A stretch of DNA of 64,000 nt from the human T2T-CHM13v2.0 reference genome, Homo sapiens. Of the stretch, positions 15,541-49,180 are shown in pieces. The notes beneath the pieces were generated by a model that saw only the letters and a program-made list of their open reading frames with translations, was not told the DNA's origin and searched no databases. Position 1 is the stretch's first letter. The number at the start of each line of letters is the position of its first letter. Position numbers and translations under genes: made by a program. The DNA is taken from assembly GCA_009914755.4 (NCBI GenBank), contig CP068257.2, forward strand, positions 23,168,001-23,232,000. The letters run 5' to 3'.

Positions 15541-17116
15541 ATGCAAGCTGGAGATAAACTTATTCTGAGGCATAGACATGCTATGTAAGTATTTCATATT
15601 TGTTCAGAAGGTCTATGCTTTCATACAGGTATAGATACGTACATATCTATCAGCCATCTATCTATCTTTCTCTATTCTGAGTGAGAAAGAGATCTACCCC
15701 CTTTATTTAAGCATAGTAGACACACACACACATATATGTAAAGAAACAGAGAGAGAAAGAGAAATTCATTCCAGAAAATGGTTCATCTCAAGAAAAGTGA
15801 CTGAGTACTAAAATAAAATATTCTTTGAGGATAAAGAAACAGCTGAGGGTTGGGGAGTAACACTGAATACAGTGCACTTTACTCAAATTTTACCTTATAC
15901 CAAGCGTACTCCTCCTGGACCCTTAGAGTACTGGGTTTGCACTTAATGAACAAGAAAACTCATTAAAAAATATATTAACATTATAATGGGACTTTGAGAG
16001 TACATGGTGAAATGTACAAAGTCAGTCACTGACCCTGGCAGGATCCGGAAGTCACGCTAGTGCTTTAAGCACTTCCAGGAAGAGAGTCCTTAGCACAGAC
16101 AGCAGTCTCAGGTTCAGGCATTACTGTCAGGGGCACAGATGGCAGCCCAGGCCCCATCACAGTGAGGCCAATGCCTTTGCCAGGTATGAGTGCCTTAGTA
16201 GTTTCTCCAGGCACAAAAGCACAGGTGGAATAGAAGAGAAAACTGCCAGTTGCCAGGAAATGCCCAAGGAGACTAATTTATAGAGAAGATTCAAAACAAT
16301 CCCTGAACTTCCCAGATTTTTTTGAGAAGTGTTTGGCTGGAATCCCAATACAGCGATTGGAAGCAGAACTAGAGAAAATTATTTTCTTGTGTTTATAATT
16401 AGCTACATAGTTTTGTATAGAGTTTGATGGTTTGGTTTCCTAGTCATACATTGTTATTTTCTCCATAGTATAGGAACCTAAGAGACCACAGCAACTGGTA
16501 TCAGTATCATTCTGTATGTGTGACTGTGTGTGGGTGTATGTGTGTGCATGTATGTTTGTGACTACATAACATCAATGTCTTATCACAAAGTATCTCTGTA
16601 AAAATCTTATCACATTTTTGTGCATACATGCTGTCAATTTATTTTAAAAGGGACTTTCATTGGATGTAAACATAGAATACCAGCCACTACATTAACACTA
16701 AGGAAATGTTTTGTTTTCATTTTGGATAGATTAGAAAATAAGCATCTATTTTAAAATGCATTTGCATTACAAATGAAATACTACATATTTCAGAGGTTCC
16801 TACATTTTCTCTGTTCATGGAATCCTTTCATATTTTTATTTTTTACTTTTTTGTCAAAGGAACCCTAAACTAAAAGAAATATCTAATAGTTTCATGTATA
16901 GTAGTTAAGCCCAACAACTGACTAAGTATTATTTATTAACAACTTAACACCTACGGCATACAACAACGTCTCACACTTCCAAATCGGATTGCATTCTATC
17001 ACCCTCATTTTCTGCTCTCCACTGTTTTTTCTCAAAGTACTTGCCTTTTATGTTAGCTGTCTCTGAAAGCCCAGGTTCACAATAATAAGACACCACTATA
17101 AGGAGAGTCAGTGATC

Positions 17117-17285
17117 TAATGCTTAACTACGAACTACTTCAAGCGAGTAGTTTTGGAGAAGCTGCTGTGTTCCCTTGAAAATTTAAAATGACTCCTAATC
17201 TCAGTATGAAAATTTTAAAATTTTCAAGGCAACACAGCAGCTTCTCAAAAACTACTAGCTTGAAATAGTTCATAGTTAAGCATTA
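17117..17285. repeat. ~170-bp near-perfect palindrome (two ~74-bp inverted arms, ~18-bp loop); MITE-like or hairpin-forming element
   Basis: Left arm: 'taatgcttaactacgaactacttcaagcgagtagttttggagaagctgctgtgttcccttgaaaatttaaaat'. Right arm: 'attttaaaattttcaaggcaacacagcagcttctcaaaaactactagcttgaaatagttcatagttaagcattag'. The right arm is ~90% identical to the reverse complement of the left arm. I verified this by manual reverse-complementation. Confidence 0.85.
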
Positions 17286-17615
17286 GTTAATATGATGAGT
17301 TGTATTCCAGGTTCTCTCAGTTAGGAATATGAACTTACTGACAGACAATAGTCCTTTTAGGCAGTTGATGAATTCAGAAAAATTACAGATGAAAAATCTG
17401 GGAGAGGTATCTGAAACTCATACATCATCAGTGAAAGTTACTAGTACCCCTTACCTATGTGTGCTTGCTAATACAGCATCCCACTGAAAAGAACCTTATA
17501 TCATCAGGATTTTTTTGCTGTAGATATATTGAGTATGCCCACTTACAACTTTTCACGTGATTATTTAATGGCTCAGCGTTCTTAAGAAATGACTTTCTTC
17601 TTTTATTAAAAAATT

Positions 17616-17877
17616 GAGGCTGAGGCGGGCAGATCATGAGGTGAGGAGATCGAGACCATCCTGGCTAACATGGTGAAACCCCATCTCTACTAAAAATACA
17701 AAAACAAAATTAGGTAGGCATGGTGGTGGGCACCTGTAGTCCCAGCTACTCAGTAGGCTGAAGCAGGAGAATGGCGCGAACCCGGGAGACGGAGGTTGCA
17801 GTGAGCCGAGATCTTGCCACTGCACTCCAGGCTGGGCGACAGAGCGAAACTCCATCTCAAAAAAAAAAAAAAAAAAA
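17616..17877 (+). mobile_element. Alu SINE (sense, 5'-truncated, starts near consensus position 40), long poly-A
   Basis: The copy reads 'gaggctgaggcgggcagatcatgaggtgaggagatcgagaccatcctggctaacatggtgaaaccccatctctactaaaaatacaaaa..gcactccaggctgggcgacagagcgaaactccatctcaaaaaaaaaa'. Confidence 0.9.
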
Positions 17878-20440
17878 GTTTTCCTCTTCATTATCCTCAG
17901 AGAAAAGGAAATGACTTTATCTTATTCAAAAGATGAATGTGAGTTATGTCATGTGATAGTATGTTTAAACTGGCTGATTAGAACCTAAAAAATAATATTT
18001 GAAAAATTTATGACATATAAATAAGATTCAAAAATTAAGTTGCTTTGTTTTTATATTTTAAAAATGACTCATAATCTAATATGACCCTTTAAAAAGTTAA
18101 AACAACCCTGTGAATTCACTGTGCTATACTGGATGGGCCTTAATGCATAATGTAGGAAGAGCAGATGTACTCAAAAGTCAGTGGTAAATATCAGAGTAAT
18201 AAGTACAGTAGTTCTAGACATACATGTTAAAATGTTTACCCTAAGGGAGCACTCAGCAATACTTGTCATTATAGACAAAGGCAAATAAAATTTGATCTTA
18301 TCAAGGTAAATTAAATGTCTAGTGAATAGGGACCTTAGAATTGTATGTATGTTTCTAGGCTAATATTTGCAAGACATGTCTAAGGTTTAAAGTTTTTCCT
18401 ATTCCCAGACAATAGTAATATATTATCTGTAACTGTTTATACAGTGAAAGTGAATAAAAACCAGATAAAGTCATTATTTCATTTTAGTATGAAGGAAATA
18501 GTTTGTCTAAGAATTACTTCTCCACAGACGATTGAGATTTTATTGGCATTAAACTAAGCCATATTAATGATTTGCTGTTTGTATGAAACAATAATAAAAA
18601 TTTTAATTAAAAATTCTAGCACATGAAAGTTTAGTACAAGCAAGAAGCTGTTGCTTTGTTCACTTGTAAGCAGGTGAGATATCAAAAAACAAATAAAAAA
18701 TAAGATTCATTTTTGTCTGAATGAGAATTAATTTATTAAATGCATTATTTTATCTAATATCCCCTTATATGTTCCTAAGGTATTTCCAAATACCATTATG
18801 AAGCTCCACCTTTTTATAGGACTTCCTTTTAAATAATGTAAAGCTAAAATCAAATTTGAATAAAATCATAAATACATAGAATGCATTATTGCAGTGCTAA
18901 AAATGCATAGCAGTTTTGTGTATGTATGTGTGTGTGTGAGTATGTTTTCCTTCCTCTATAATTATCCTTGTCTGTCAGCTTAGTCTATCTGAACACACAA
19001 GCTCCCTGTTGCAGCACGAAATCTTAATCTGGTGTCTTGGGGCTCTTATCACTGGCAATTCTGCAGATCATGTTCCCAGACCCAGCCTTGGGTCACTGTT
19101 CCCTCCAGTGTCTCCAGAAGCAGCTCAGTGGATGAAACAGCCTCTCAGTAGTCACAAGATTCTAGCTTAATTTTTTCAAGGTTTAGAATTTATACTATAC
19201 TAGGTCCAGCAGAATGAACACCATGAAAGCTCTGAACAAAAAATTGGAAGCCTTGGTTATATTTCCTAGTTTCTGTCCTGGAACCCAACAGGCCTGCGGG
19301 CTCAGCCTCAAACATAACTAATTTTTTTACTCTGATTCGGATCCATGGTGATTCACAACTTGTTTTTAAACACAGTTAACTACTTTTTCCTATTTTATCA
19401 AAGTTTTCCATAATTTGGCAAGTGAAGGAATGAAAGATTGTCTAACACGTGAAATAACAGCACCAACTTGACAAGATATTTGCAGGCCAGGAAAAAAAAA
19501 AGCATAAGCAGAGTATGAATCAAATGTGAAGAGGAAATGGAGAAAATAGAGGAAAGTGATTAACATTGTTTAAATATAAAGGTGTAAGAAAAGGGAATTT
19601 CATATTCAGAAATAACTCTCCCTTAGGGTAATGGATTTCAATAGAAAGCAAGTGCAGAGAAATTGAAAGCAGCTCCGTGAAAATTCAGGAAAATATCCTT
19701 AATTCAATTAGGAACTGACTGTCATTACAGCTTTCTATCAGCTCTGGACAGAGCCTGATGGGCACATGCATCAGCCTAATAGTTTAGTTCTTAGTTAAAA
19801 CAAAGTTAAAAAAATAAATATTTAGTTGGAAAGGAAACCTTTTTCTATAAATTTGTTCCATAAACGTTCATATTCCTTTAAATTTGAAATAACTGAAATA
19901 AAAGGTGAATAGTCTACATAAAATGCAACATTATAATTTACCTTCACAGATACTGTTTTGTTTTGGATATTTTTGCAACAACACAACTAAGTTGAAAGGA
20001 TAATTTCCAGCTTTACTGAGGTACAATTAACAAATAAAAATCATATATTTTAAGGAGTACTATGTGATAATTTGGTGTGCATATGCATTGTGTAAAGATT
20101 ACAACAATTAAATTAACACGTTCATCACCACACATCGTTACTCTTGTGTGTGTGGAGGGTGAGGACACTTAAGATCTACTCTTTTTGCAGATTTCAAGTA
20201 AAGAGTACAGTATTGTTACCTATAAAAATTAGATCCCCAGAACTGATTCATCTTATAACTGAAAGTTCCTACTTTTTGAGCAACATGTGAGATCATGTAG
20301 TATTTGTTTTTCTGCATCTGGCTTTTCCATTTAGCACAGTGTTCTCCAGGTTCATCCAAGTTGTCACAAATGGCAGGATTTCCTTCTTTTAAATGTCCGA
20401 ATAATATTAAATTATATATGTATATCTGTACAGTATATAT

Positions 20441-20482
20441 TAGTTTGGTGAAAATGTAATTGCTGTTTTTGCCATTACTTTA
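20441..20482. mobile_element. Partial MADE1/Hsmar1-type TIR fragment
   Basis: The fragment 'gtttggtgaaaatgtaattgctgtttttgccattactttaat' resembles the MADE1 terminal repeat 'ttaggttggtgcaaaagtaattgcggtttttgccatt'. Confidence 0.45.
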
Positions 20483-21189
20483 ATATATGTGTATATGTAT
20501 TGTATATATGTGTATATTTGTGCATATGTACATATATATGTATACACACACCATATTTTCTTCATCCATCAATGAACACTTAGGTTGTTTCCGTATCTTA
20601 GCTACTGTGAATAGATCATTCTTTTCTGTTTAGATGACACTTGCCCTTCTACTCACTAATTCAGTAACCTTTTTTGGGAGGTAACTTAACAATTTGCCCT
20701 GCTTGCATCATATGTAAAATAGGGGTGGTAAAAATAGTTCGCTTACAGCATTGTTGTAGTAATTAAGTAACTTACTATGTGGAAATGTTCAGAGCTACAC
20801 ATAATGATGAATAAGTATCTTCTTTTGTTAACCTTTGATTGCAAAGTTTGATCTAACATGTTTTGTTTGATGGTCAGGACCACAAAACCCCCTCACACCT
20901 TACACATATTTATTACAAAAGTACTCAGGAGAGATCAGTCAACTCCGATGACAAGTGATTTTTGTTTCTATTCTGAGGTTTTGTTGCCTGTTGAAAGAAT
21001 GTGACCAGGTGTATTTCCTAAGATATATAAGGAGTCACATATAAAATTCCGAGATTCCAGGTACCATAATTCAAATTTAGACCAATGTCATAGCATTGCT
21101 TCTACTCTGGTGCCAAATAAGCTTCCCAGATGGCCCATCCATGAACCTGGCTCTGATTTTTAATAGAGTTAGTGTGATATTTTGGAAAG

Positions 21190-25153: not shown

Positions 25154-25448
25154 TTTTTTTTTTTTTTTTGAGACAGAGTCTCACTGTCGCCCAGGTTGGA
25201 GTGCAGTGGCACGACCTCGGCTCACTGCAAGCTCCGCCCCCAGGGGTTCACGCCATTCTCCTGTCTCAGCCTCCAGAGTAGCTGGGACTGCAGGCGCCCG
25301 CCACCTCGCCCGGCTAATTTTTTGTATTTTTAGTAGAGACGGGGTTTCACTGTGTTAGCCAGGATGGTCTCGATCTCCTGACCTCGTGATCCTCCCGCCT
25401 CGGCCTCCCAAAGTGCTGGGATTACAGGCATGAGCCACCGCGCCCGGC
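25154..25448 (-). mobile_element. AluY-like SINE (antisense), 16-nt poly-T, intact ~16-bp TSD
   Basis: The TSD 'tggagaaatgtaaatt' is at 25138-25153 and again at 25449-25464. The body has high CpG retention ('cacgccattctcctg', 'ggcgcccgccacctcgcccggc'), which suggests a young copy. Confidence 0.95.
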
Positions 25449-25560
25449 TGGAGAAATGTAAATTTTGAAAGCATAATGTATAGCTGTAGCTTAACAAATA
25501 GTGGCACATTTATATTGACCAGATGAAATTGAGGTAATATAAAAATATACACATGAGATA

Positions 25561-25951
<391 letters not shown>

Positions 25952-26112
25952 ATATTATTATATAAATATGTGCCTGTGTATTCTGATCCAAACTCAACAG
26001 CAAAGAAAAAATTTGATATGTATTTTGATTCATCGAGACCAGTAAGTGGTCAAAATTTACTTTGTGAGTGTGTATGATTTCATTAACATGAAATAGTATT
26101 TATTTATTTTAA

Positions 26113-26429
<317 letters not shown>

Positions 26430-44017: not shown

Positions 44018-44453
<436 letters not shown>

Positions 44454-48789: not shown

Positions 48790-49019
48790 AAAATTTTTTT
48801 CTAAATGTTCATATATTATTGCCTAAGGCAATTAGCATACTTGCACGTGTGTGTGTAGATATATATGCATAAAATTATATTTCCGTGAATATTTATGGAG
48901 TGACAAGTTTCTGCTAAAATCTCAACTAGTTGTTGGGTATAAGTGATCACTATTCCCATAGCCAGAAAACTAACAATGAGGAGGCTCTCATTGAAAATAT
49001 AGTCTAATATAGATGTACG

Positions 49020-49180
49020 TATGTGTGTGTGCATGTATATATTTTTTTCTGGGAGCTAGAAGTATTACAAATATATATATATATATGATCACACACACAT
49101 ACATACATCTATATGTGCACACACACATACATACATCTATATTAGATGCATATATATATATATATATACACTCACATAAA
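49020..49180. repeat. Compound microsatellite cluster (TG)n, (TA)n, (CATA)n with an internal ~50-bp direct duplication
   Basis: The cluster reads 'atgtgtgtgtgcatgtatatat..atatatatatatatgatcacacacacatacatacatctatatgtgcacacacacatacatacatctatattagatgcatatatatatatatatatacac'. Confidence 0.9.

What the first reader, a model, noticed from the sequence alone, without database searches (positions are those of the whole stretch)
17117..17285. ~170-bp near-perfect palindrome (74-bp arms, 18-bp loop) that matches no repeat family I recognise
The two arms are about 90% reverse-complementary, which I checked base by base. This would form a very stable hairpin or cruciform. The structure is typical of MITEs. 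MADE1 elements of this kind give rise to miR-548 family hairpins. It is also typical of palindromic sites prone to replication slippage or deletion. I cannot assign it to MADE1, MER or another known MITE from its termini. The flanks show no clean TA or TTAA TSD.
Basis: seen in the sequence. Interest (0 to 1): 0.55.

Follow-up and report, generated by a model that had tools for sequence, protein, structure and literature searches.

The report
Isolated 171-bp imperfect palindrome, primate DNA
A real 171-base near-palindrome sits in non-coding, Alu-rich primate DNA; it is most likely a neutral relic of a local inverted duplication or of an old miniature transposon, and nothing suggests that it does anything.

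Summary
Arms 17116-17188 and 17214-17286 are 73 nt long and 92% complementary, with a 21-25 nt spacer. The hairpin is far more stable than chance (RNA -93.7 kcal/mol, z = -17).

The window is catarrhine-primate (human-like) DNA, with Alus, MADE1 copies and an LTR12-like segment. I found no coding signal within about 10 kb.

- **What it is not:** it does not match MADE1/mir-548, and it does not match any Rfam family.
- **Copy number:** there is no second full copy in the window. A Dfam/Repbase or primate-genome search was impossible with these tools, so family membership stays untested.
- **Target-site duplication:** the only candidates are the self-complementary TA and TTAA inside the palindrome itself. 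There is no 3-10 bp non-palindromic duplication.
- **Nearby relative:** a diverged segment (74% identity, 18037-18098) is collinear with the inner left arm and spacer. It does not continue into the rest of the right arm.
- **Inner junction:** it lies in a self-complementary AAAATTTTAAAA tract.

Best reading (confidence about 0.4): a roughly 30-Myr-old local inverted duplication, made by replication template switching or fold-back synthesis. Close rival (about 0.35): a fossil TA-flanked MITE. Either way it is probably neutral, and interest is low to moderate.

The parts
17116..17188 (.). Left arm of the palindrome (73 nt, 37% GC). Under the preferred model this is the ancestral copy.
17189..17213 (.). 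Non-palindromic spacer (TGACTCCTAATCTCAGTATGAAAAT). The RNA and DNA folds leave 22 nt unpaired.
17214..17286 (.). Right arm (73 nt, 31.5% GC), 92% complementary to the left arm. Under the preferred model this is the secondary inverted copy.
17207..17226 (.). Perfect 20-bp sub-palindrome TGAAAATTTTAAAATTTTCA. Its centre (17216/17217) is offset from the main centre (17201). It spans the junction between spacer and right arm and is the candidate microhomology for a fold-back or template switch.
   Evidence: (I2)
17176..17219 (+). 13-nt direct repeat, TGAAAATTTAAAA (17176-17188) and TGAAAATTTTAAA (17207-17219). The same AT tract sits at the inner end of the left arm and at the end of the spacer.
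   Evidence: D2
17273..17290 (+). 7-nt direct repeat TAGTTAA (17273-17279 and 17284-17290) that straddles the outer end of the right arm. It may be microhomology for the switch back, or it may be coincidence.
   Evidence: sequence read; string printed
17117..17118 (.). Candidate TA target-site duplication (partner at 17284-17285) if the element is a Tc1/mariner-type MITE spanning 17119-17283. It cannot be distinguished from arm sequence.
18037..18098 (+). Diverged relative of the palindrome core: 74% identity over 66 columns to 17159-17223 (inner 30 nt of the left arm, the spacer, and the first 10 nt of the right arm). It lies 0.8 kb downstream, on the far side of an Alu insertion.

Best explanation
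The palindrome is a locally made inverted duplication, not a mobile element. An ancestral stretch (left arm plus spacer) ended in a self-complementary AAAATTTTAAAA tract. During replication or break repair, the nascent strand folded back or switched template at that tract and copied about 73 nt of the adjacent sequence in reverse complement. It then returned to the original template near TAG/TTAA at 17284-17290. That single event created a near-perfect palindrome. Its arms have since drifted apart by about 7% (about 3.5% per arm). This dates the event to very roughly 30 Myr ago, with limits of 10-70 Myr. Today it is most likely a neutral fossil. It is a potential hairpin on single-stranded DNA or in a transcript, but it has no demonstrated function.

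- **Shown:** the structure, its statistics, the junction repeats, and the core relative.
- **Inferred:** the mechanism, which arm is the copy, the age, and neutrality.
For: 1. No non-palindromic target-site duplication of 2-10 bp exists at any boundary offset from 0 to 11. Only the self-complementary TA, AT, GC and TTAA, which any palindrome contains, were found.
2. The inner junction lies in a perfect 20-bp sub-palindrome (17207-17226) and a 13-nt direct repeat of the left arm's inner end. This is the kind of microhomology a fold-back needs.
3. A nearby relative at 18037-18098 matches 17159-17223 with a Smith-Waterman score of 26. The best score elsewhere in the 64 kb on either strand is 19, and the maximum over 200 shuffles is 18. 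Its 74% identity makes it older than the 92% arm-to-arm identity. So the core sequence predates the event that made or homogenised the arms.
4. That relative is collinear with 30 nt of the left arm plus the spacer, but with only about 10 low-complexity nt of the right arm. This asymmetry is expected if the left arm and spacer are ancestral and the right arm is a later copy.
5. The relative is itself a weak quasi-palindrome: its self-reverse-complement score is in the top 2% of 86-bp windows. This fits expansion of an existing short inverted repeat.
6. Template-switch events that create hairpins in one step are documented in primate lineages, with lengths of 28 nt and up to 83 nt (PMC10710096). 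Homogenisation and expansion of inverted-repeat arms by template switching is described in yeast (PMC13100816).
7. No second full copy is in the window. There is no Rfam family, and no match to MADE1.
Against: - Typical short-range template switches are about 10 nt long (PMC7954356), so a 73-nt event is far out in the tail and a priori rare.
- The tests that could have proved the model from the window alone failed. After the right arm is deleted in silico, the relative's homology does not continue into the right flank beyond chance (score 26 to 30). It does not continue into the left flank either (31 against a null mean of 30.7).
- The relative is short and AT-rich. Its significance is only about 0.01 window-wide by my own extreme-value estimate from the scores, so it could be spurious.
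- MITEs are the commonest known source of symmetric palindromes of 100-200 bp. A TA dinucleotide does flank ATGC...GCAT.
- The arm divergence matches that of a MADE1 copy in the same window, which fits the primate burst of DNA-transposon activity.
- No outgroup sequence and no repeat library could be consulted.
Confidence: 0.42

Rival explanations
1. The palindrome is a fossil non-autonomous DNA transposon (MITE), most plausibly of Tc1/mariner type. The element would span 17119-17283 (ATGCTTAAC...GTTAAGCAT) and would have inserted at a TA that is now duplicated at 17117-18 and 17284-85. It would have been active during the early-primate burst of DNA-transposon activity. It would belong to a Dfam/Repbase family that neither reader recognises, and it is now immobile and neutral.
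For: - A symmetric palindrome of about 170 bp with a short non-palindromic centre is the classic MITE shape.
- TA dinucleotides sit in the right places.
- Arm complementarity (92%) is close to that of a bona fide MADE1 in the same window (arms about 88%, TA-flanked). The age therefore fits the last wave of human DNA transposons (about 40 Myr ago or earlier; from my memory of Pace & Feschotte 2007, not checked here).
- The window holds at least three MADE1-derived segments.
- About 24 of 238 Repbase MER consensus sequences are palindromic (PMC5424272), so palindromic families beyond MADE1 and MER53 exist.
Against: - The TA cannot be distinguished from arm sequence. No unambiguous target-site duplication exists.
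- A TTAA (piggyBac) reading would need 7 further flanking bases to be complementary by chance, about 6e-5 (my calculation from the sequence).
- There is no 8-bp hAT-type duplication.
- The termini do not resemble the usual superfamily ends (CAG.., TTAGG.., CCC..). This rests on my own knowledge and was not tested.
- From memory, the known young human MITE families have much shorter inverted termini than 73 nt.
- There is no other full copy in 64 kb.
- Exact 19-20-mer scans of the viral, prokaryotic-genome and metagenome collections gave only chance bacterial matches. This is weak evidence, because those collections hold almost no primate DNA.
- The nearby core relative is older than the arms and asymmetric. 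A simple single insertion does not predict that.
Confidence: 0.35
2. Hybrid or other repeat origin. The core (about 60-75 bp, inner arms plus spacer) would come from an ancient short palindromic repeat that is present twice locally (17159-17223 and 18037-18098). One copy was later lengthened and homogenised. Alternatively, the palindrome is an internal palindromic segment of a larger, unrecognised interspersed repeat.
For: - The core relative is at 74% identity.
- The relative is a weak quasi-palindrome centred on the same spacer.
- Expansion of inverted-repeat arms by template switching is documented (PMC13100816).
Against: - Homology is limited to about 62 bp. A full-length alignment of the palindrome to the second site is not better than controls (19 of 1244 controls score as well; 38.8 against a null maximum of 40.4).
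- The 1.5 kb to the left and 0.33 kb to the right of the palindrome have no significant relative elsewhere in the window. No other inverted repeat brackets the palindrome.
Confidence: 0.12
3. The hairpin is a functional small-RNA locus: a lineage-specific miRNA or endo-siRNA precursor, or an ADAR-edited dsRNA element. This concerns function rather than origin, and is compatible with any of the origins above.
For: - The RNA hairpin is very stable.
- MITE-derived and template-switch-derived hairpins have both given rise to primate miRNAs (PMC1784062, PMC10710096).
Against: - No Rfam family reaches threshold.
- The stem is about 69-73 bp, twice the roughly 35 bp preferred by the Microprocessor (PMC10710096).
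- The arm mismatches are uncompensated.
- 14-16-mers from the arms, as DNA or RNA, occur in no paper text apart from one unrelated paper.
- There is no evidence of transcription, and no recognisable coding exons within about 10 kb.
Confidence: 0.05

Closest known systems
Hairpins and inverted repeats created by short-range replication template switching (Loytynoja & Goldman 2017, PMC5453318; Monttinen et al. 2023, PMC10710096)
   Same: - A single event yields a near-perfect inverted repeat next to its template.
- No target-site duplication is produced.
- The junctions lie in microhomology.
- Such events occurred in primate lineages, with documented lengths of 28 nt and up to 83 nt.
   Different: - Most events are about 10 nt long (PMC7954356), whereas this one would be 73 nt.
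- The ancestral state has not been seen, so the event is inferred and not reconstructed.
MADE1 / Hsmar1-derived MITE (source of mir-548)
   Same: - An almost fully palindromic short element with a TA at both ends.
- Similar arm divergence to a MADE1 copy in this same window.
   Different: - No sequence similarity to MADE1.
- 171 bp against 80 bp, with arms of 73 nt against 37 nt.
- No Rfam mir-548 hit.
- The TA cannot be separated from the arms.
MER53 and other palindromic MER families (MER5A1, MER81, MER91C, MER117; PMC5424272, PMC2996404)
   Same: The length class (114-197 bp) and a palindromic consensus.
   Different: - From memory, these families are old and mammal-wide, so I would expect their arms to be far more diverged than 8%.
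- Rfam finds nothing here at gathering score and no sequence-level hit to any curated miRNA family. I did not check which MER-derived miRNA families Rfam holds.
- The MER consensus sequences themselves were not available to compare.
PATRRs (palindromic AT-rich repeats) and other unstable human palindromes (PMC7999016)
   Same: A non-coding, non-TE-like near-palindrome able to form a hairpin or cruciform.
   Different: - PATRRs are several hundred bp long, more than 90% AT and nearly spacerless.
- This palindrome is 171 bp and 66% AT, with a 21-25-nt spacer and 8% arm mismatch.
- Its expected instability is therefore much lower.

Membership tests
MADE1 (Hsmar1 MITE) / mir-548 | Sequence similarity to the 80-bp MADE1 consensus | tested here: not met
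It does not hit 17116-17286.
MADE1 (Hsmar1 MITE) / mir-548 | Match to the Rfam mir-548 covariance model | tested here: not met
   No hit at gathering score in the window. mir-548 is not among the 21 hits with E <= 10 in 16900-17500.
Any curated RNA family (Rfam 15) | Score at or above the family's gathering threshold | tested here: not met
   Zero matches in 64 kb. The best sub-threshold hit is MIR7533 at 60.4 bits against a gathering score of 230. The aligned positions are structure-driven, with little sequence identity.
MITE (generic non-autonomous DNA transposon) | Terminal inverted repeats | tested here: met
   Met trivially, because the whole element is an inverted repeat.
MITE (generic non-autonomous DNA transposon) | Target-site duplication flanking the termini | tested here: inconclusive
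   Only self-complementary TA and TTAA inside the palindrome were found. There is no direct repeat of 3-10 bp at offsets 0-11.
MITE (generic non-autonomous DNA transposon) | Many dispersed copies with the same ends (a family) | not testable with these tools
   No primate genome or Dfam/Repbase library is available. Within the window there is one full copy plus one 62-bp partial relative. Scans of the viral, prokaryotic and metagenome collections gave only chance hits. A protein-word search with the read-through peptide found nothing.
MITE (generic non-autonomous DNA transposon) | Termini typical of a transposase superfamily (hAT YAG.., pogo CAG.., mariner TTAGG.., piggyBac CCC.. with TTAA) | tested here: not met
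   The ends read CTAATGCTTAAC.. / ..GTTAAGCATTAG. The comparison with superfamily motifs rests on my own knowledge, not on a library search.
Template-switch (TSM) generated inverted repeat | The ancestral or outgroup sequence has the source arm but not the inverted copy | not testable with these tools
   No orthologous sequence could be obtained. Three ORFs next to the palindrome are not on record in the assembly index.
Template-switch (TSM) generated inverted repeat | Switch points lie in microhomology; no target-site duplication | tested here: met
   There is a 20-bp perfect sub-palindrome and a 13-nt direct repeat at the inner junction, and a TAGTTAA repeat at the outer junction. There is no unambiguous target-site duplication. 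These features are suggestive, not specific.
Template-switch (TSM) generated inverted repeat | Copied length within the documented range | tested here: inconclusive
   The 73 nt is below the 83-nt maximum documented in PMC10710096. It is far above the expected length of about 10 nt (PMC7954356).
PATRR | More than 90% AT, several hundred bp, near-perfect and spacerless | tested here: not met
   66% AT, 171 bp, a 21-25-nt spacer and 92% arm complementarity. The definition is taken from PMC7999016.

The most novel reading that the evidence does not exclude
The palindrome would be the product of one exceptionally long (about 73 nt) template-switch event in the catarrhine lineage. That event turned an older short quasi-palindrome into a 69-bp-stem hairpin. 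The locus would be transcribed and processed, or A-to-I edited, as a lineage-specific small-RNA or dsRNA element. It would then be a fresh example of de novo hairpin-gene birth at the upper size limit of the mechanism. An alternative novel reading is that it is the first recognised copy of an uncatalogued primate MITE family with unusual termini.
Probability: 0.08. Interest if true: 0.5.

Novelty: new member of a known kind. Interest (0 to 1): 0.25.

Why it matters
If the template-switch origin is right, this is one more instance, an unusually long one, of a mutational process already shown to create hairpins and occasionally miRNA genes in primates. It would be a useful data point on the upper size limit of such events. 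It would also be a site with some potential for replication slippage or deletion.

If it is a MITE copy, it is ordinary genome annotation.

Nothing here opens a long-standing question. The practical value is as a caution: a symmetric palindrome with TA or TTAA in its ends is not by itself evidence of transposition.

Tried and rejected
1. **Rfam.** The whole window at gathering score gave nothing. A 600-bp E-value scan gave only generic hairpin matches.
2. **BLAST of the palindrome against the window.** It found only itself and the 62-bp relative.
3. **Consensus sequences typed from memory (AluY, B1, MIR, MADE1).** These identified the host as a catarrhine primate and ruled out MADE1.
4. **Exact-pattern scans of public collections.** I used two 19-20-mers conserved in both arms:
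   - viral contigs: 0 hits both times;
   - GTDB genomes: 0 hits, then one chance hit in a rumen Bacteroidaceae MAG;
   - JGI metagenomes: one chance hit in a GC-rich contig.
   These collections hold almost no primate DNA, so the negatives carry little weight.
5. **The look-up of encoding contigs.** Three ORFs in or beside the palindrome are not on record, so no orthologous primate DNA could be fetched.
6. **The search for homologous proteins.** The 47-aa read-through peptide was used to look for exonised or ORF-called copies. No candidate was found.
7. **Full-text search for 14-16-mers from the arms, as DNA and RNA.** It returned one hit, in an unrelated AML paper that I did not open.
8. **The equine MER paper.** No supplementary consensus sequences are held for it.
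9. **Extending the homology of the relative.** Extension into the flanks after deleting either arm in silico was not better than chance. Full-length alignment was not better than chance either.
10. **Pfam scan.** All 146 open frames of at least 45 aa between 6 and 29 kb, outside Alus, gave no family. There is no recognisable exon nearby.
11. **GC-rich block at 29.8-30.1 kb.** I considered that it was a promoter or first exon. I rejected this because the adjacent sequence carries the CCAATCAGC-type repeats of an LTR12/HERV9 LTR (recognised from memory).
12. **Assembly or library fold-back artefact.** Rejected, because such artefacts give identical arms, not 92% complementarity.

Full report
**What is there.** The stretch 17116-17286 is a genuine imperfect palindrome.
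- The repeat finder reports arms 17116-17188 and 17214-17286, 73 nt, 92% complementary, 25 nt apart.
- A gapped arm-against-arm alignment has 75 columns with five substitutions and one single-base indel in an A/T run.
- The 171 nt fold into one hairpin with 69 base pairs and a 22-nt loop.
- For the 183-nt stretch 17110-17292, the RNA fold is -93.7 kcal/mol against -32.4 +/- 3.6 for dinucleotide shuffles. The DNA fold is -63.0 against -15.4 +/- 2.8. Both give z of about -17, and no shuffle came close.
- BLAST of the region against its own reverse complement gives E = 6e-50.
- Among short-range inverted repeats in the 64 kb, only two inverted Alu pairs have longer arms.

- An AluY consensus matches 13 loci, the best at 97.5% (44173-44453).
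- There are MADE1 copies and a MIR fragment, and open frames that look to me like L1 ORF2 remnants (identified by eye, not tested).
- The only GC-rich block (about 29.5-30.1 kb) carries the CCAATCAGC-type repeats of an LTR12/HERV9 LTR (recognised from memory).
- GC content averages about 36%.
- None of the 146 open frames of at least 45 aa between 6 and 29 kb, outside Alus, matches a Pfam family.
- Rfam finds no RNA gene in the whole window.

The palindrome therefore lies in non-coding, repeat-rich sequence. A 5'-truncated Alu was inserted 330 bp downstream of it (17616-17878).

**What it is not.**
- It has no similarity to MADE1. The consensus finds three other loci in the window but not this one.
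- No Rfam family reaches its gathering score. A permissive scan of 16900-17500 lists only structure-driven matches to unrelated long-hairpin models, mostly plant MIR families. All are far below threshold (best: MIR7533, 60 bits against 230) and show little sequence identity in the alignments.
- It is not a PATRR: it is 66% AT, not over 90%, is 171 bp, not several hundred, and has a spacer (definition from PMC7999016).
- It is not an assembly fold-back artefact, because the arms differ at 8% of positions.

**The search for a family.** A MITE is defined by terminal inverted repeats, a target-site duplication and membership of a dispersed family.
- The first feature is trivially present.
- For the second, I compared the k bases outside each end, for k = 2-10 and boundary offsets 0-11. 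Only TA, AT, GC and TTAA matched. All are self-complementary strings that any palindrome contains.
- If the element is 17119-17283, it is flanked by TA, as a Tc1/mariner insertion would be. The TA then cannot be told from arm sequence.
- If the element is 17127-17275 flanked by TTAA, seven further flanking bases would have to be complementary by chance (about 6e-5, my calculation). I reject the piggyBac reading.
- There is no 8-bp hAT-type duplication.
- From my own knowledge, the ends (CTAATGCTTAAC...) do not resemble the usual hAT, pogo, mariner or piggyBac termini.
- For the third feature there is no usable resource here, neither a Dfam/Repbase library nor a primate genome.
  - Inside the window there is no second full copy.
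  - Exact 19-20-mer scans of the viral, GTDB and JGI collections gave only chance bacterial matches.
  - Three ORFs at the locus are not in the assembly index.
  - A protein-word search with the 47-aa read-through peptide found nothing.
  - A full-text search for arm 14-16-mers returned a single hit in an unrelated AML paper, which I did not open.

These negatives are weak, because the collections contain almost no primate DNA. Family membership remains untested, not refuted.

**Internal clues to origin.** Four features point away from a simple insertion.
1. The junction between the spacer and the right arm lies in a perfect 20-bp sub-palindrome, TGAAAATTTTAAAATTTTCA (17207-17226). Its centre is 15 bp from the main centre. 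The last bases of the spacer repeat the inner end of the left arm (TGAAAATTTAAAA at 17176-17188 and TGAAAATTTTAAA at 17207-17219). A nascent strand ending in this self-complementary A/T tract can pair with the upstream copy and be extended along the left arm. That would give exactly the observed right arm, apart from one extra A in the run.
2. At the outer end of the right arm, TAGTTAA occurs twice, 11 bp apart, across the boundary (17273-17279 and 17284-17290). This is a possible return microhomology.
3. A related segment lies 0.8 kb downstream: 18037-18098 matches 17159-17223 at 74% over 66 columns.
   - Its Smith-Waterman score of 26 compares with 19 for the best match of the palindrome anywhere else in the window on either strand, and with a maximum of 18 in 200 shuffles.
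   - It includes the non-repetitive spacer motif AAATGACTC[C/A]TAATCT.
   - Since 74% is well below the 92% between the arms, the core sequence is older than the event that made or homogenised the arms.
4. The relative is collinear with 30 nt of the left arm plus the whole spacer, but with only about 10 low-complexity nt of the right arm. That is expected if the left arm and spacer are ancestral and the right arm is a secondary inverted copy.

The relative is itself a weak quasi-palindrome centred on the same spacer (top 2% of 86-bp windows).

**Limits of those clues.**
- Homology of the relative does not extend to the outer arms.
- After either arm is deleted in silico, it does not continue into the flanks beyond chance. 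So I could not reconstruct an ancestral arrangement from the window alone.
- The relative is short and AT-rich. I put its window-wide significance near 0.01, my own extreme-value estimate from the scores.

**Most likely mechanism.** I favour a local inverted duplication by replication template switching, or fold-back (snap-back) synthesis, primed in the AAAATTTTAAAA tract. It would have expanded an older short quasi-palindrome into 73-nt arms.
- Such events create perfect inverted repeats in one step and leave no target-site duplication. They are documented in primate lineages at lengths of 28 nt and up to 83 nt (PMC10710096; PMC5453318).
- Homogenisation and expansion of inverted-repeat arms by the same process is described in yeast (PMC13100816).
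- The weakness is size. The expected copied length in great-ape events is about 10 nt (PMC7954356), so 73 nt is far in the tail.
- My confidence is about 0.42.

**The main rival.** A fossil TA-flanked MITE stays close, at about 0.35.
- It has the right shape and a permissible TA.
- Its arm divergence is like that of a TA-flanked MADE1 in the same window (arms about 88%).
- About 24 of 238 Repbase MER consensus sequences are palindromic (PMC5424272), so a family unknown to both readers is quite possible.

**Age.**
- Five substitutions in 74 aligned positions give p = 0.068 and K = 0.071, or about 3.5% per arm. The 95% binomial limits on p are 2.2-15%.
- With the catarrhine substitution rates I remember (about 3% per lineage since the split from Old World monkeys), this is roughly 30 Myr, with limits of about 10-70 Myr.
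- The age is an inference. It does not separate the two models.

**Function.** Nothing indicates one.
- The arm mismatches are uncompensated.
- No curated RNA family matches.
- The 69-73-bp stem is about twice the roughly 35 bp preferred by the Microprocessor (PMC10710096), so the whole hairpin is not a canonical pri-miRNA.
- If transcribed, it would be a better substrate for Dicer-type endo-siRNA processing or ADAR editing. There is no evidence of transcription.
- At the DNA level, longer arms, higher identity and shorter spacers raise instability. Inverted Alus stall forks in eukaryotic cells with a 12-bp spacer but not with a 52-bp spacer (PMC7999016). With 73-nt arms, 8% mismatch and a 21-25-nt spacer, this site is at most mildly at risk.

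**Verdict.** A non-transposon origin is at least as likely. Whichever origin is right, this is a member of a known kind of sequence and is probably a neutral relic. A Dfam search, a genome-wide copy count and an outgroup alignment would settle the question in minutes.

Noticed in passing
window 25559-25952: A TA-flanked MADE1 element is split by an Alu insertion. MADE1 positions 1-53 lie at 25561-25613, the Alu at 25614-25892, and MADE1 positions 39-80 at 25908-25950. The 15-bp overlap AAAGTAATGGCAAAA is repeated on both sides of the Alu and is the Alu's target-site duplication.
   Followed up: partly
window 25244-25448 / 25615-25819 and 25740-25900 / 26137-26297: Two inverted Alu pairs with short spacers: 205-nt arms, 89% complementary, 166 nt apart; and 161-nt arms, 74% complementary, 236 nt apart. 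They are larger potential hairpins than the finding itself and are classic ADAR-substrate or instability configurations.
   Followed up: no
window 18037-18098: A 62-bp segment is 74% identical to the inner left arm plus spacer of the palindrome, including the motif AAATGACTC[A/C]TAATCT. It lies 0.8 kb downstream, beyond an Alu. It is itself a weak quasi-palindrome.
   Followed up: yes
window ~29500-30120 (- strand): The only GC-rich block in the window carries repeated CCAATCAGC-type motifs typical of an LTR12/HERV9 LTR (recognised from memory). Its long GC-rich open frames looked like a first exon at first, but are probably LTR sequence.
   Followed up: partly
window 49003-49146: Another inverted repeat: 49-nt arms, 84% complementary, 46 nt apart. 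It lies in TG/TA-rich low-complexity sequence and is probably a by-product of the simple repeats.
   Followed up: no
window 35572-35626: A spacerless (TA)n-based palindrome of about 54 bp, GTGTGATTGA(TA)n..TCACA.
   Followed up: no
They are young insertions and place the source genome among the catarrhine primates.
   Followed up: no
window 20440-20481: A half-length MADE1 remnant (42 bp, about 90% to either arm of the consensus) lies directly next to a (TG/TA)n simple repeat at 20483-20527.
   Followed up: no
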